Positions 20,132-22,948 of a DNA stretch of 64,000 nucleotides are shown piece by piece. A program made the position numbers and the translations under genes. Within the stretch, counting starts at the first letter, position 1; each line of letters begins with the position of its first letter. The DNA lies in IMG/VR virus record IMGVR_UViG_3300012003_000003, positions 7,672 through 71,671 of that record, one strand, 5' to 3'. This DNA is from a virus. A model generated the notes under the pieces. The model was not told the DNA's origin. It was given only the letters and a program-made list of their open reading frames with translations, and searched no databases.

Positions 20132-20863
20132 ATGGGAAGGCAAATACTTACATGTAGAGTTACCGTCATTGAGTCTTTTAGACAATGGATAGAATCTTCT
20201 GACCAAGAAGATAAACCATGGATAAACGAAAATTCGGTTTTGTCAAATATTAAGGGAATTGAAACATTCAATATTAAGGCAAAATTCGGTTCGGCCGGAC
20301 ACAGTATCATTGAGGAAGCGCCAAGGTATGCTACCATAGGTGGGTATGCAGTGGATGGTTTTACATTTACCGAGCACCAGGCTAAACCGATGATCAAGTT
20401 TCGTAATGACCATCCACTAATGACCCGCGAGCTGGCGCTGAGCAAGCTGTACCATACGCCATACTTTGACATTATCATTACGGGAACTACGGACCATTTA
20501 GAGGGAAATATACTCCGAGATACAAAATTCAAATTTAGTACTTATGATGTTTCTGATTTTATCAGCAGCTTTCAATGGAGATGTTATTTAGACATGATAG
20601 GGCTAGATATTTTTTGGTATGATTTTTTCAAAGTTTCTGGTTTTAACACAATTGAAGATTGTCCAAGCGCCAGGATATCGGATTGCGAAAGCATGATGGT
20701 AAAGCGATATCCCAGTATGGATGCTGATATACAGGAAACCATTAATGAGTTTGCTCAGTTTATCAATTTTAAAGGATTAGAGCAACACTTAAAAATTACA
20801 CCTGAAAAATATAAAAGAATATTAAGAGGCGACAGTAGTTTAAAAAAAATCATATCTTTATGA
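20132..20863 (+). CDS. PD-(D/E)XK exonuclease-like protein (probable Sak4 partner)
   Basis: FGSAGHSIIE, GTTDHL..LRDTKFK, QWRCYL. Confidence 0.7.
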   Translation: MGRQILTCRVTVIESFRQWIESSDQEDKPWINENSVLSNIKGIETFNIKAKFGSAGHSIIEEAPRYATIGGYAVDGFTFTEHQAKPMIKFRNDHPLMTRELALSKLYHTPYFDIIITGTTDHLEGNILRDTKFKFSTYDVSDFISSFQWRCYLDMIGLDIFWYDFFKVSGFNTIEDCPSARISDCESMMVKRYPSMDADIQETINEFAQFINFKGLEQHLKITPEKYKRILRGDSSLKKIISL

Positions 20864-20988
20864 CGCTTTACAACTCAATACAAAATGACAGCAGATCATT
20901 AACGTTTAAAAATATAATCAGCGGGCCGGTGAATCCTTCCTCTTTTGGATTGGGTTGTAAAGCACACCGCCCCCTGGTTTCTTTTTTT

Positions 20989-21543
20989 ATGCAAACAGAA
21001 ATAAATTTTGATGTTGAGGTTTGGAAAGATGTTCCAGGTTATGAAGGCTTATATCAAGTAAGTTCTTTGGGAAAATTTAGATCATACGACTCATTAAAGA
21101 TTGCTTTTGGCAAAGGATATTATACTCAAAAGGGTAGAATATTAAAACAATCAAAAGAAAAAAACGGGTATTTAAGAATTGCTCTTTTTAAGGATTTGGT
21201 TAATATAAAATACAGGGCCCATAGAATAGTAGCAGAGGTTTTTGTTCCCAATCCTGAACACAAAGATCAAGTAAACCACATCAACGGTATAAAGACCGAT
21301 AACAGAGCCGTGAATGTAGAATGGGTTACCGCTTCTGAAAATCAAATACACGCTGTAACAACGGGCCTTCGACCAATAGGTGAAGATATTTATTGCGCAA
21401 AGGTAACAGAGAATCAGGTTTTAATATTTAGGGAGGAATATGCCTCCGGATTATCTGTTCCTGAAATATTTAGAAAGCATAATGTTTCGAGACACTTAGT
21501 AAACAGAATAGTTAAAAATAAAAGCTGGAAACATTTATTATAA
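20989..21543 (+). CDS. NUMOD4-HNH homing endonuclease
   Basis: EVWKDVPGYEGLYQVSSLG (NUMOD4), HRIVAEVF..QVNHINGIKTDNRAVNVEW. Confidence 0.92.
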   Translation: MQTEINFDVEVWKDVPGYEGLYQVSSLGKFRSYDSLKIAFGKGYYTQKGRILKQSKEKNGYLRIALFKDLVNIKYRAHRIVAEVFVPNPEHKDQVNHINGIKTDNRAVNVEWVTASENQIHAVTTGLRPIGEDIYCAKVTENQVLIFREEYASGLSVPEIFRKHNVSRHLVNRIVKNKSWKHLL

Positions 21544-21636
21544 ACCATCACAGATGCTAAGCGTAAGCGCATTGCAAGAGGGGATAGTAAACTTTTAAAA
21601 TTGATATAACATTATGAAAATTCAAACAAAATATTT

Positions 21637-21644
21637 TATCTTTG
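21637..21644 (+). promoter_or_regulatory. Bacteroidota -7 promoter element
   Basis: TATCTTTG matches the TAnnTTTG consensus, immediately upstream of the structured RNA. Confidence 0.65.
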
Positions 21645-22031
21645 GTCATTGTCGGAACATGCTTCGCAGGCTGATCCCTCACTCGTCTAAAGATATTTCA
21701 TTTCTTGGCTGTACGGTGTGTACAGATTCCGGTGAAAGCCGTAAGCCCTGCGAAGCACTGTATAACAACCGTCAGCCAAGAAATGATAATTTTCATGAGC
21801 CATCGAACATAGCCACAGCACCCATAAGCGGTGTAGTGGTCATTAACACCTTAAAAGGACCGTTCCCCGACGAGGGTAGTGGTAAGTTATCCTTATTGGT
21901 TAGGGATAATATGAATAAACAGGGTGGGGCAACTTCTTCCCTGAAACTAAGCGATACGACAAGTGACCGACTGCGGAGTTTGAATAAGGGTTTGCTCTCT
22001 AACGGGGGTAGGGGGCAAACTTCTTTTCTTT
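21644..22031 (+). ncRNA. Large structured non-coding RNA of unknown class
   Basis: Many long helices, an 11-bp pseudoknot, GNRA loops, closing P1 helix, upstream promoter and downstream hairpin plus pyrimidine tract. Confidence 0.75.
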
Positions 22032-22083
22032 CGCTCCTCAACTTCGTTCACTCTTGCGGTTGAACAATTAAAAAGTTAATAAA

Positions 22084-22635
22084 ATGAAAGTTATCTGTCC
22101 AGTTTGTAAAAAAGAGTTTGACGCCTTTCGAGGCGAAATAAACAGGGCTTTGAAAAATGGGTATGACGTAAGATGTAGTCAAGCATGTTCAGGACTTGCA
22201 AGGCGTAAAAACATAACCCCCGAACAGTTTAAAGCCAATAAAGCGGCGTATGATAAAAAGCGGAGAGAAGAAAAGTATTTAACCCATATAAAACCACAAA
22301 AACAAGCCTATGACAAAACCGAAGCAGGCAGGGAAGCCCAAAAACGAAGGCGACAAACAAGGATGCCAAAACACGTTGAATATTGCAGACAGCCACACTA
22401 TAAAGTTAAAAAAGTTGAGTACGATAAACGGCATAGATCCGAAAAGAATTATGGTGAATTTGCCGAAGTCTTTTTATTAACCGAACAAATTTTTACCCAC
22501 ATAGATAATAGAATAGTTAAATATCATCACGGATTAACAAATAAATCACAAATTAGAAAACGAAAATGGAAAACGCAACTAAACAGCCAAAACTTACCGC
22601 AGATGCCCTCAAAAGCGCTCTTTGGGAAACATTAA
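22084..22635 (+). CDS. Basic Zn-ribbon protein
   Basis: CPVC...CSQAC followed by a K/R-rich helix. Confidence 0.7.
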   Translation: MKVICPVCKKEFDAFRGEINRALKNGYDVRCSQACSGLARRKNITPEQFKANKAAYDKKRREEKYLTHIKPQKQAYDKTEAGREAQKRRRQTRMPKHVEYCRQPHYKVKKVEYDKRHRSEKNYGEFAEVFLLTEQIFTHIDNRIVKYHHGLTNKSQIRKRKWKTQLNSQNLPQMPSKALFGKH

Positions 22636-22793
22636 ACGATTTACGCACCGACAAGTGCGAACCGGGTAAGGCCGATAGTATCGCTACTCAGGCGAGAGAG
22701 ATACTAAGAACTGTAAACACCCAATTAAAGGTAGCCTCGGTAACCGGGCGCAAGGTATCGGTAGATGTTACCGACTTTGCGGAGAATAACTAA
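22566..22793 (+). CDS. Hypothetical protein
   Basis: 75-aa helical ORF. Confidence 0.65.
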   Translation: MENATKQPKLTADALKSALWETLNDLRTDKCEPGKADSIATQAREILRTVNTQLKVASVTGRKVSVDVTDFAENN

Positions 22794-22820
22794 CTTAAAA
22801 TCCGCAGAAATGCGGATAAT

Positions 22821-22891
22821 GCACCTATCGTTCAATGGTAGGACTACGCTTTTGTAATGCGTGTATTGGGGTTCGAATCCTCATAGGTGCT
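22821..22891 (+). tRNA. tRNA-Thr(UGU)
   Basis: Acceptor GCACCTA/TAGGTGC, D-arm GTTC-AATGGTA-GGAC, anticodon loop TTTGTAA, T-arm TGGGG-TTCGAAT-CCTCA; CCA not encoded. Confidence 0.85.
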
Positions 22892-22948
22892 CAAAAATAT
22901 ACTCTATATGGTATATAATGTTAAAATATACACTGATTAGCATATAAT

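What the first reader, a model, noticed from the sequence alone, without database searches (positions are those of the whole stretch)
21637..22031. Large pseudoknotted phage ncRNA with its own promoter and terminator
Seen: promoter TATCTTTG (21637-21644). Closing helix GGTCATTGTCG (21644-21654) with CGACAAGTGACC (21957-21968). A long arm 21698-21725 with 21758-21786, including a perfect 14-bp TCATTTCTTGGCTG/CAGCCAAGAAATGA. Its loop holds a GAAA tetraloop hairpin and CCTGCGAAGCA (21747-21757), which forms a perfect 11-bp pseudoknot with TGCTTCGCAGG (21660-21670). A second long-range pair CTCGTC (21682-21687) with GACGAG (21869-21874). Further hairpins at 21812-21840, 21887-21909 and 21920-21943 (GCAA loop), then a hairpin 21990-22020 plus pyrimidine tract. 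I do not recognise tmRNA, RNase P or group I/II intron hallmarks. It is followed by a very basic Zn-ribbon protein and a tRNA. Inference: a possibly undescribed ribozyme-sized RNA, perhaps forming an RNP with the 22084-22635 protein.
Basis: partly seen in the sequence, partly recalled or inferred. Interest (0 to 1): 0.88.

Follow-up and report, generated by a model that had tools for sequence, protein, structure and literature searches.

The report
Hidden pseudoknotted phage RNA under an ORF
A roughly 420-base stretch of an uncultivated phage folds into a conserved, pseudoknotted RNA that matches no catalogued RNA family and has been annotated as a hypothetical protein because an open reading frame runs across it.

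Summary
The described helices are all in the sequence. The + strand folds far better than shuffles (z -5.56, against -2.05 for the - strand). Relatives exist only in metagenomes: one partial JGI contig, short Logan contigs from four runs, and 18 ORF translations. They show compensatory changes in the 11-bp pseudoknot, the long arm, the GAAA hairpin, hairpin 21886-21910 and the 3' hairpin. Homology starts at 21634/35 and ends at about 22059, with unlike flanks.

Rfam 15 gives no match. No copy turned up in GenBank phages, or in IMG/VR and GTDB by pattern scans. I therefore read it as a real, apparently uncatalogued structured RNA on the + strand.

- The CTCGTC/GACGAG long-range pair is broken in relatives.
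- The TAnnTTTG box is no commoner in the window than chance, and no transcript ends are shown.
- Twelve relatives of the basic 183-aa protein lack the RNA next to it, and five of their whole records lack it entirely, so an obligate RNP is not supported.

One complication remains. The 149-codon frame is open in every relative found (133-182 aa), although the residues drift, 7 of 19 relatives match two frames, and AlphaFold2 gives no fold.

Function is unknown. My best guess is a discrete phage ncRNA nested in a pass-through ORF.

The parts
21634..22059 (+). Conserved block, the whole RNA element. Homology to relatives begins and ends here and the flanks are unlike.
   Evidence: loose ends lie before 21634/21635 (X5) and behind 22059 (X7) and 22063 (X5); the X4 piece ends at 22072. 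ORF relatives match up to 22045-22069.
21637..21644 (+). TATCTTTG, a promoter-like box of TAnnTTTG type. It is the most conserved piece of the family at the 5' edge. No transcription start is shown.
   Evidence: motif present but not enriched. F10 is nearly invariant over 19 ORF translations. F8-I9-F10 (codons TTT ATC TTT) are invariant in the first 7.
21646..21654 (+). P1 closing helix, 5' strand. It pairs with 21957-21966, with G21963 bulged.
   Evidence: 123 of 144 codon-derived cells are compatible in register, against 71-105 of 141-145 with the partner slid. The strands are invariant in the DNA relatives, so there is no direct covariation.
21660..21670 (+). Pseudoknot, 5' strand. It pairs with 21747-21757 over 11 bp.
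   Evidence: 2 pairs changed on both sides in L014. X5 has 21668 A>T with 21749 T>A; codon-level covariation C-G/G-C/U-A at 21665:21752.
21700..21784 (+). Long arm (21700-21725 with 21758-21784). Its apical loop carries the GAAA hairpin 21730-21741 and the pseudoknot 3' strand 21747-21757.
   Evidence: G-C to C-G at 21708:21776 in L014. G-C, A-U and C-G inferred at that pair in 16 sequences. The GAAA stem covaries.
21812..21840 (+). Hairpin in the almost invariant core 21788-21878.
   Evidence: Searches show no variation in L014, X4, X7 or X8, so the pairing is untested.
21859..21883 (+). Local hairpin that holds GACGAG in its loop and stem.
   Evidence: 21879 G>A in X4 and X8 turns U.G into U-A.
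21886..21910 (+). Hairpin with covariation.
   Evidence: X4: 21887 T>C with 21909 A>G (U-A to C-G). Five further one-sided changes are all G.U-compatible (21886, 21893, 21902, 21903, 21906).
21920..21943 (+). Hairpin CAGGG/CCCUG whose predicted inner hairpin is capped by GGCAAC (GCAA). It lies in the invariant stretch 21913-21981.
   Evidence: One search shows no variation in X4, X5 or X7.
21957..21966 (+). P1 closing helix, 3' strand.
21975..22037 (+). Long 3' hairpin (core 21988-22023) followed by a U/C-rich run. It looks like an intrinsic terminator.
   Evidence: X7 inserts TA behind 21994 and TA behind 22015, which adds 2 bp. 21987 A>G and 21999 C>T are G.U-compatible. 21982 G>A breaks one outer pair.
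22038..22059 (+). Conserved tail beyond the terminator-like hairpin. Its role is unknown.
   Evidence: no differences listed between 22004 and 22059 in X4, X5 and X7; relatives match it in two reading frames.
21614..22063 (+). 149-codon open frame across the whole RNA. It is kept open in all relatives found, but its residues are weakly constrained.
20860..21543 (+). Neighbour: free-standing NUMOD4 + HNH_3 homing endonuclease. It is present here but not upstream of the RNA in L014.
22084..22635 (+). Neighbour: basic 183-aa protein with CxxC...CxxxC. It is not linked to the RNA in its relatives.
22821..22892 (+). Neighbour: tRNA-Thr(tgt).

Best explanation
Window 21634-22059 (+ strand) encodes a conserved, compactly folded RNA of about 400 nt.

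Architecture:
- a closing helix P1;
- a 5' domain, in which an 11-bp pseudoknot ties the segment after P1 to the apical loop of a long arm that also carries a GAAA-capped hairpin;
- a nearly invariant core with four hairpins;
- a long 3' hairpin with a U/C-rich run.

Shown: the base pairing is under selection on the + strand, the element is a self-contained module with varying neighbours, and it belongs to no Rfam 15 family.

Inferred: it is made as a discrete transcript. That transcript would start a few bases after the conserved TATCTTTG box (about 21650, downstream of the ATG at 21614, so it would not be translated). It would end at the 3' hairpin. It would act as a folded RNA in trans during the early or replication phase, like the other large phage RNAs of unknown function (GOLLD, ROOL).

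Also inferred: the open frame laid over it serves operon read-through transcripts. Ribosomes starting at 21614 would translate across the element and through the terminator hairpin, letting transcription and translation pass on to the downstream genes. This would explain why the frame is kept open while its residues drift.
For: 1. Thermodynamics and strand. z is -5.56 on + and -2.05 on -. The block has 46.5% GC against 40.9% for the window.

2. DNA covariation against L014. Of 59 pairs, 96.6% of cells are paired, against 32-50% with slid partners. Four pairs are changed on both sides (2 in the pseudoknot, 1 in the arm, 1 in the GAAA hairpin) and 6 are changed on one side, all staying standard pairs.

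3. Logan contigs.
- Pseudoknot pair 21668:21749 goes A-U to U-A.
- Pair 21887:21909 goes U-A to C-G.
- Two base pairs are inserted in the 3' stem.
- About 13 one-sided changes in helices across searches are G.U-compatible only on the + strand.

4. Codon-derived test on 15 ORF translations. 441 of 464 cells are compatible in register, against 297-332 of 462-465 with slid partners. Residue pairs R/E, G/Q, C/K, A/Q and D/Q track C-G, G-C and U-A at 21665:21752. Residue pairs G/P, D/S and A/A track G-C, A-U and C-G at 21708:21776.

5. Nucleotide-level rather than protein-level conservation.
- The runs 21788-21843, 21845-21878, 21913-21981 and 22004-22059 show no listed change in contigs whose flanks are unalignable.
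- The variants fall 11/11/7 on codon positions 1/2/3 (my count).
- 7 of 19 relatives match the window DNA in two frames.
- AlphaFold2 on 19 rows gives pLDDT 50, pTM 0.11 and no secondary structure.
- Pfam and PHROGs give nothing.

6. Module behaviour. Homology has sharp ends. The upstream genes differ in L014, where a 221-aa and an 81-aa ORF (the first RusA-like by my reading of the sequence, no scan run) replace the 243-aa ORF (phrog_34697, unknown function) and the HNH gene.

7. TTTATCTTT is the most conserved piece at the 5' edge.
Against: - No transcript data: no RNA run was listed, so the start, the end and even expression are not shown.
- TANNTTTG is not enriched in the window (74 against 82.8 expected), and the host is not identified.
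- The frame 21614-22063 has no internal stop, while the other + frames have 10 and 17. Only 6 of 20000 shuffles keep frame 0 open.
- All 18 relatives found by protein search carry ORFs of 133-182 aa, and at least 8 align in one frame over about 150 aa.
- Between the window and L014, 8 of 20 changed codons are synonymous in frame 0, against 0 of 20 and 3 of 21 in the other frames. Some coding constraint is therefore likely, and the RNA could be an mRNA feature rather than a separate transcript.
- About 35 nt beyond the 'terminator' are as conserved as the core, which a simple terminator end does not explain.
- Full-length DNA of relatives was not obtainable. Most covariation beyond L014 and the short Logan contigs is inferred from codons.
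- Four cells in the middle of the arm are unpaired in L014.
Confidence: 0.5

Rival explanations
1. It is first of all a protein-coding gene. A small, basic, largely disordered 149-aa protein is the functional product. The conserved RNA structure is a feature of its mRNA, serving stability, translational control or protection from host nucleases.
For: - The frame is open, with p about 3e-4 for frame 0 and 1e-3 for any + frame.
- It is open in all 18 relatives, and many keep one frame over the whole length.
- Synonymous changes are in excess in frame 0 (8/20 against 0/20 and 3/21).
- The gene fits the tight same-strand packing: it starts 70 nt after the HNH stop and ends 20 nt before the next ATG.
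Against: - 7 of 19 relatives switch frame over conserved nucleotides.
- L014 carries a -1/+1 indel pair that rewrites 12 codons.
- The 'conserved' Cys and other residues change exactly as base pairing predicts.
- Stretches of up to 69 nt are invariant at all codon positions while the flanks are unalignable.
- There is no Pfam or PHROG family, no usable Atlas hit, and pLDDT is 50 with no secondary structure.
Confidence: 0.2
2. It is a cis-acting leader or attenuator. A large sensing domain (for a ligand, a tRNA or a protein) decides whether the 3' hairpin terminates transcription before the downstream genes, as in riboswitches, T-boxes or leader-peptide attenuation.
For: - The order is promoter-like box, structured domain, terminator-like hairpin, then a gene 46 nt further on.
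- The terminator stem is itself conserved, with a compensatory 2-bp insertion.
- An ORF reading through the terminator recalls attenuation.
Against: - The downstream sequence differs between relatives. X5 runs on unlike after 22063.
- Relatives of the 183-aa gene have no such leader, and their upstream gaps are not unusually structured (z -1.0, +0.5, -2.2).
- No riboswitch or T-box model matches even at E up to 10.
- I did not look for an antiterminator alternative, and none stood out.
Confidence: 0.15
3. It is the RNA of a mobile element, for example a degenerate or ORF-less group I-like intron, or an RNA carried with the neighbouring HNH homing endonuclease.
For: - A NUMOD4/HNH_3 endonuclease gene lies directly upstream.
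- The block has sharp homology borders and unlike flanks.
- It has a pseudoknot and GNRA loops, as self-splicing introns do.
Against: - No group I, group II or HEARO model matches at E up to 10.
- No host gene is split: complete ORFs lie on both sides.
- L014 has the RNA without the endonuclease.
- There is only one copy in the genome.
Confidence: 0.05
4. It is a chance fold of ordinary intergenic or coding DNA.
For: Single-sequence folds can look ornate. The promoter and terminator scans are at background level.
Against: - z is -5.56, with 0 of 100 shuffles as good.
- Perfect inverted repeats of 14 nt and 11 nt were seen in 0 and 8 of 500 shuffles.
- Compensatory changes occur in five helices.
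Confidence: 0.02

Closest known systems
GOLLD and ROOL RNAs (large ornate RNAs of phages and prophages)
   Same: - Phage-encoded, several hundred nucleotides long, with multiple helices and pseudoknots.
- No known protein partner and unknown function.
- Often near tRNA genes. [quoted passage not shown]
- Here a tRNA-Thr lies about 760 nt downstream, and the 3' two-thirds are far more conserved than the 5' domain.
   Different: - Neither covariance model matches, even at E up to 10.
- The size is about 400 nt, against about 580 nt for ROOL (recalled) and more than 800 nt for GOLLD.
- Multimer formation is untested.
- An open reading frame kept across the whole RNA is, as far as I recall, not described for them.
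Group I self-splicing introns of phages
   Same: - Size of 250-450 nt, a core pseudoknot and GNRA-capped peripheral hairpins.
- Frequent neighbourhood of homing endonuclease genes (established knowledge).
   Different: - No match to the Rfam intron models.
- It does not interrupt a gene.
- The pseudoknot topology differs: a strand after P1 pairs with the apical loop of one arm, which is not the P3/P7 arrangement. No guanosine-binding helix was identified.
HEARO / IscB omega RNA (HNH-endonuclease-associated RNA)
   Same: A structured, pseudoknotted RNA of a few hundred nucleotides beside a gene with an HNH domain.
   Different: - No model match.
- The HNH protein here is a 227-aa NUMOD4/HNH_3 homing endonuclease lying upstream, not an IscB.
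- The endonuclease is absent beside the RNA in L014.
Dual-function RNAs and leader-peptide attenuators (SgrS/SgrT, RNAIII/hld, trp leader; recalled)
   Same: One transcript region carries both a functional RNA structure and a translated frame. In attenuators, translation decides whether a terminator forms.
   Different: - In those cases the frame covers a small part of the RNA and encodes a conserved peptide or a short leader.
- Here the frame spans the whole 400-nt fold, terminator included, and its residues drift.

Membership tests
Any Rfam 15 family (including GOLLD, ROOL, HEARO, group I and II introns, RNase P, tmRNA, riboswitches, T-box) | Match to the family's covariance model | tested here: not met
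   at gathering scores only tRNA matches in the 64 kb; with E up to 10 on 21300-22400 there are only 3 noise hits (11.7-15.4 bits against gathering scores of 40-64). ARAGORN finds no tmRNA or tRNA here.
Group I intron | Interrupts a host gene whose exons join to an intact frame | tested here: not met
   a complete HNH ORF ends at 21543 and a complete 183-aa ORF starts at 22084; other complete ORFs lie upstream in L014.
Group I intron | P3/P7 pseudoknot with a guanosine-binding site, and self-splicing | not testable with these tools
   The topology seen differs from P3/P7 by my reading. Catalysis needs a bench assay.
GOLLD/ROOL-like large phage RNA (a kind, not a homologous family) | Phage-encoded, large, multi-helix with a pseudoknot, near a tRNA | tested here: met
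   (virus record). (fold, pseudoknot with covariation). (tRNA-Thr at 22821).
GOLLD/ROOL-like large phage RNA (a kind, not a homologous family) | Accumulates as a discrete RNA and forms homo-oligomers | not testable with these tools
   No RNA run was available (see Tried and rejected). No structure method for RNA is on hand.
Intrinsic terminator | G+C-rich stem followed by a U run | tested here: met
   14 pairs, 5 G-C, loop of 7, tail CTTTTCTTTC. The scan as a whole is near background (4 found against 2.7 expected); the stem is kept by a 2-bp compensatory insertion. Actual termination is not shown.
TAnnTTTG-type (-7) promoter | Motif at the 5' edge, used genome-wide, with a mapped start | tested here: inconclusive
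   The motif is present and the best conserved piece. It is not enriched in the window (74 against 82.8 expected). No 5'-end data exist.
Riboswitch or attenuator leader | Constant association with the regulated downstream gene | tested here: not met
   the downstream sequence is unlike in X5; relatives of the 183-aa gene lack the element.
Protein-coding gene | Open frame kept across relatives | tested here: met
   the frame is open in the window and in 18 of 18 relatives (133-182 aa). Relatives were found through called ORFs, so the sample is biased.
Protein-coding gene | Purifying selection on residues, a known or foldable domain | tested here: inconclusive
   For: 8 of 20 changed codons are synonymous in frame 0, against 0 of 20 and 3 of 21. 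Against: 7 of 19 relatives match two frames, the variants fall 11/11/7 by codon position (my count), pLDDT is 50, and there is no Pfam or PHROG hit.

The most novel reading that the evidence does not exclude
A nested, translation-gated RNA gene. A ribozyme-sized ncRNA with its own start and terminator sits inside an operon. A sequence-unconstrained 'pass-through' ORF is kept open across it solely so that ribosomes on read-through transcripts melt the fold and its terminator, or shield the RNA from Rho, and carry expression on to the downstream genes. Transcripts from the internal start lack the ATG and fold into the active RNA. If so, long always-open 'hypothetical protein' ORFs could be hiding structured RNAs from intergenic-only screens in many phages.
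Probability: 0.2. Interest if true: 0.8.

Novelty: new variant of a known kind. Interest (0 to 1): 0.62.

Why it matters
Large RNAs with tertiary structure are rare, and each new class has tended to reveal new biochemistry, as ribozymes, riboswitches and RNA nanocages did. This one has a well-supported pseudoknot, GNRA loops and invariant stretches of up to 69 nt in phages from soil, wastewater and lake or fresh water. It is nevertheless absent from Rfam 15 and from GenBank phages, and pattern scans of IMG/VR and GTDB found no other copy.

It also shows a blind spot. The published IMG/VR screen for structured RNAs searched only regions left intergenic by MetaProdigal (passages of PMC10690425). 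Here gene callers place a 149-aa ORF over the RNA.

The coexistence of a selected fold with a permanently open but drifting frame is a testable puzzle about how phages embed RNA genes in translated operons.

Tried and rejected
- **Search for relatives by DNA.**
  - blastn in distant mode against 50,697 GenBank phages found no match. tblastn with P0001 and P0008 also found none.
One search (query: the 183-aa protein) gave 12 loci, none with the RNA.
  - Four exact strings from the element gave 0 hits each.
  - A degenerate string gave 4 loci that proved to be chance hits in coding DNA, three of them the same sequence.
  - P0012 and alignment A6 gave no relative.
  - The GTDB genome scan gave 2 chance hits.
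  - The JGI metagenome scan gave 225 pattern hits but only 1 relative, L014, which breaks off at window position 21892.
- **RNA-protein link.** nhmmer found nothing in the 12 loci with relatives of the 183-aa protein. MAFFT of the three long upstream gaps showed no homology. Those gaps fold at z -1.0, +0.5 and -2.2. Five whole records gave only 14-17-nt noise. I did not run complex prediction, because nothing suggested binding.
L014 has a deletion and two substitutions in the 5' strand while GACGAG is unchanged. X5 carries 21686 T>A. The local hairpin 21859-83 is supported instead.
- **Other pairings: rejected.**
  - The MFE helices 21682-86/21794-98 and 21690-94/21788-92 are broken in L014.
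  - TATCTTT with AAAGATA (21689-95) fails because 21694 T>C occurs in L014 and both X5 contigs without a partner change.
  - 21674-82 with 21899-907 fails because 21674 A>C is uncompensated.
  - The tail against the body by RNAduplex is no better than shuffles (244 of 300 as good).
- **Complementarities near chance level, not followed.** The 9-nt complementarity of the ORF start (21614-22) to 21788-96, and the 12-nt, 92% complementarity of 21785-96 to the start of the 183-aa gene.
- **Expression.** No RNA holder was listed. All four runs laid were DNA contigs.
- **Host.** A Sak4-like neighbour gave only hits of 25-29% identity to Acinetobacter, Aggregatibacter/Haemophilus and Bacteroides phages. 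The host was not assigned. A Bacteroidota host is only suggested by the motif type.
- **P0016.** This 1011-aa protein is a repeat protein and a chance hit.
- **Literature.**
  - Three full-text searches found no description of this RNA.
  - For PMC10690425 I saw the outline, abstract and passages.
  - For PMC12286853 I saw passages only.
  - PMC5737381 and the other papers appeared in search listings only.
- **Recalled, from no call.** The ROOL size; the group I, IscB and dual-function RNA features; the position of the transcription start relative to a TAnnTTTG box.
Full report
**Setting.** The window is bases 7672-71671 of a 71.7-kb IMG/VR virus record that is 96% complete by CheckV and has no taxonomy. 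The finding lies in a same-strand block of recombination and replication genes. In order these are:
- a Sak4-like annealing protein;
- a DUF5131 protein;
- a 147-aa protein;
- a 243-aa protein;
- a free-standing NUMOD4/HNH_3 endonuclease (20860-21543);
- the region in question;
- a basic 183-aa protein with CxxC...CxxxC (pI 10.1);
- an overlapping 75-aa ORF;
- tRNA-Thr(tgt) at 22821-22892.

- The + strand of 21637-22040 folds at -140.9 kcal/mol, against -112.3 +/- 5.2 for shuffles. That gives z -5.56, with 0 of 100 shuffles as good. The - strand gives z -2.05.
- A perfect inverted repeat of 14 nt or more never arose in 500 dinucleotide shuffles, and one of 11 nt or more arose in 8 of 500. The region has both.
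- The promoter box and the terminator are only consensus matches. TANNTTTG occurs 74 times in the window against 82.8 expected. The terminator scan finds 4 sites against 2.7 expected.

**Known families.** cmscan against all 4227 Rfam 15 models gives only the tRNA at gathering scores. With permissive filters and E up to 10 it gives three noise hits of 11.7-15.4 bits. ARAGORN sees no tmRNA.

**Relatives.**
- The element occurs once in its genome.
- It has no match in GenBank phages.
- IMG/VR gave nothing by seven pattern scans for the RNA or its ORF. GTDB genomes gave only two chance hits.
- Because gene callers put a 149-aa ORF over it, relatives could be found as 'proteins'. The word-indexed search found 6 and the exhaustive search found 17 real ones. 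With one further cluster member, P0021, that makes 18 distinct relatives. All are from ENA, Logan or JGI metagenomes.
- DNA of relatives therefore comes from two sources only. One is JGI contig L014, about 86% identical, which breaks off at window position 21892. The other is short Logan contigs from four runs (wastewater, lake water and two freshwater runs), laid on the window at 80% likeness or more.

**Structure under selection: DNA evidence.** On the window/L014 alignment, my model has 59 pairs (pseudoknot, arm, GAAA hairpin and two core hairpins).
- 96.6% of cells are paired, against 32-50% when partners are slid.
- Four pairs are changed on both sides: 21665:21752 C-G to G-C, 21667:21750 C-G to A-U, 21708:21776 G-C to C-G, and 21732:21739 G-C to A-U.
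- Six are changed on one side, all staying standard pairs.
- Four cells are unpaired: three in the middle of the arm and one at the base of the GAAA hairpin.

The Logan contigs add the following:
- Pseudoknot pair 21668:21749 goes A-U to U-A in one X5 contig.
- Pair 21887:21909 goes U-A to C-G in X4.
- Five further one-sided changes in hairpin 21886-21910 all keep pairing.
- 21879 G>A turns U.G into U-A in hairpin 21859-83.
- In X7, TA is inserted behind 21994 and TA behind 22015, which adds two base pairs to the 3' stem.

The one-sided changes make or remove G.U pairs on the + strand. On the - strand they would be A.C mismatches. Together with the z-scores this fixes the strand.

**Structure under selection: codon-derived evidence.** The ORF translations allow an indirect test.
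- For the 15 relatives alignable in frame over residues 1-57, I turned each residue into its possible bases. I left out P0001 as the reference. I dropped P0004, P0007 and P0015 because their 5' halves do not align.
- Over 31 pairs of the 5' domain, 441 of 464 cells are compatible with pairing in register. With partners slid by 1-3 the figure is 297-332 of 462-465.
- The residue at codon 21665 and the one at codon 21752, thirty residues apart, change together. The combinations are R/E, G/Q (4), G/R, C/K (5), A/Q (3) and D/Q. These correspond to C-G, G-C and U-A.
- Codons 21707 and 21776 give G/P (2), D/S (5) and A/A (6), corresponding to G-C, A-U and C-G.
- These are inferences from codons. L014 confirms two of them directly.
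- For the closing helix the same test gives 123 of 144 against 71-105 of 141-145. Its strands hardly vary, so it is supported mainly by conservation.

- The CTCGTC/GACGAG pair is broken in L014 and in one X5 contig while its partner stays unchanged.
- Arm pairs 21698:86 and 21699:85 are incompatible in 12 of 17 relatives.
- In the closing helix, the outer pairs 21644:68 and 21645:67 overlap the promoter-like box and are each incompatible in 3 of 17 relatives. Pairs 21654:57 (7 of 18) and 21647:65 (5 of 17) fit worst.

**Extent and modularity.**
- Homology in the Logan contigs begins at 21634/35. It ends at 22059-22063, with the X4 piece running to 22072. Unlike sequence lies beyond these points.
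- Inside the block, the 5' domain differs by 6-14% between relatives.
- The runs 21788-21843, 21845-21878, 21913-21981 and 22004-22059 show no listed change.
- The last of these runs extends about 35 nt past the terminator-like hairpin, which I cannot explain.
- Upstream genes differ. L014 has a 221-aa ORF and an 81-aa ORF, the first RusA-like by my reading, and no HNH gene.
- The 183-aa protein has 12 IMG/VR relatives, none with the RNA nearby. Five of their whole records, two of them 100% complete, lack it entirely. The long gaps upstream of three of these genes are not unusually structured.
- An obligate RNP with that protein is therefore not supported.

**The ORF problem.** Evidence for real selection on the frame:
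- Frame 0 (21614-22063) has no internal stop, while the other two + frames have 10 and 17.
- Only 6 of 20000 shuffles keep frame 0 open, and 21 keep any + frame open.
- All 18 relatives carry ORFs of 133-182 aa, and at least eight align in a single frame over about 150 aa.
- Between the window and L014, 8 of 20 changed codons are synonymous in frame 0, against 0 of 20 and 3 of 21 in the other frames.

Evidence against a conventional protein:
- 7 of 19 relatives match the window DNA in two frames.
- L014 has a -1/+1 indel pair that rewrites 12 codons over conserved nucleotides.
- The Logan variants fall 11/11/7 on codon positions 1/2/3 (my count).
- The apparently conserved Cys and charged residues change as base pairing dictates.
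- No Pfam or PHROG family matches.
- AlphaFold2 with the 19-row alignment gives pLDDT 50, pTM 0.11 and no secondary structure.

The sample is biased towards open frames, because relatives were found through called ORFs. Even so, the window itself, the frame retention and the synonymous excess suggest that openness is selected while the residues are hardly constrained.

**Most likely mechanism.**
- Shown: a selected RNA fold on the + strand, modular, and of no known family.
- Inferred: a discrete ncRNA. The conserved TATCTTTG box sits at the 5' edge of the block, downstream of the ATG. A transcript started there (about 21650, by recalled spacing rules) could not be translated from 21614. It would fold and end at the 3' hairpin.
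- Inferred: read-through transcripts from the upstream genes contain the ATG. Ribosomes crossing the element, terminator included, would let the operon continue. This would select for an open but otherwise free frame.
- The trans function of the RNA is unknown. Its ornate fold, invariant single-stranded runs, phage location and nearby tRNA place it beside GOLLD and ROOL in kind (passages of PMC12286853). It is not in either family.
- Rivals are a real small protein with a structured mRNA, a cis-acting attenuator, and a mobile-element RNA.

**Novelty.**
- I found no description in three literature searches.
- The IMG/VR-wide screen for structured RNAs used only MetaProdigal intergenic regions and required three IMG/VR copies (passages of PMC10690425). 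That design would have missed this element.
- I rate this a new family of a known kind (large phage ncRNA), with an unusual overlay of a maintained ORF.

Noticed in passing
window 21614-21622 / 21788-21796 and 21785-21796 / 22084-22095: The invariant segment GATAATTTTCAT is perfectly complementary over 9 nt to the start of ORF149. It is 92% complementary over 12 nt to the start of the 183-aa gene. That is near chance level for AT-rich sequence, but it could sequester start codons.
   Followed up: partly
window 22566-22793, and L002 4492-4713, L003 1533-1754, L005 4501-4719, L006 4483-4713: The 183-aa basic protein gene is followed, with an overlap, by an ORF of 72-76 aa in the window and in at least four related phages. 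This looks like a conserved two-gene unit independent of the RNA.
   Followed up: no
window 20860-21543 and 21544-21609: A NUMOD4/HNH_3 homing endonuclease lies directly before the RNA but is absent in L014. The highly conserved RNA gene could be the homing target. I did not test this.
   Followed up: no
window 22800-22817: A hairpin ATCCGCA(TTTC)TGCGGAT sits just upstream of the tRNA. It scores as terminator-like on the - strand only, although all the genes here are on the + strand.
   Followed up: no
window 21634-22059: G+C of the RNA block is 46.5%, against 40.9% for the whole window. This is the usual signature of a structured RNA in an AT-rich genome.
   Followed up: yes
L019, L020, L022: Three IMG/VR contigs from different samples share an identical 472-nt stretch around a chance match to my degenerate pattern. 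They are the same or nearly the same phage sampled three times and are unrelated to the finding.
   Followed up: no
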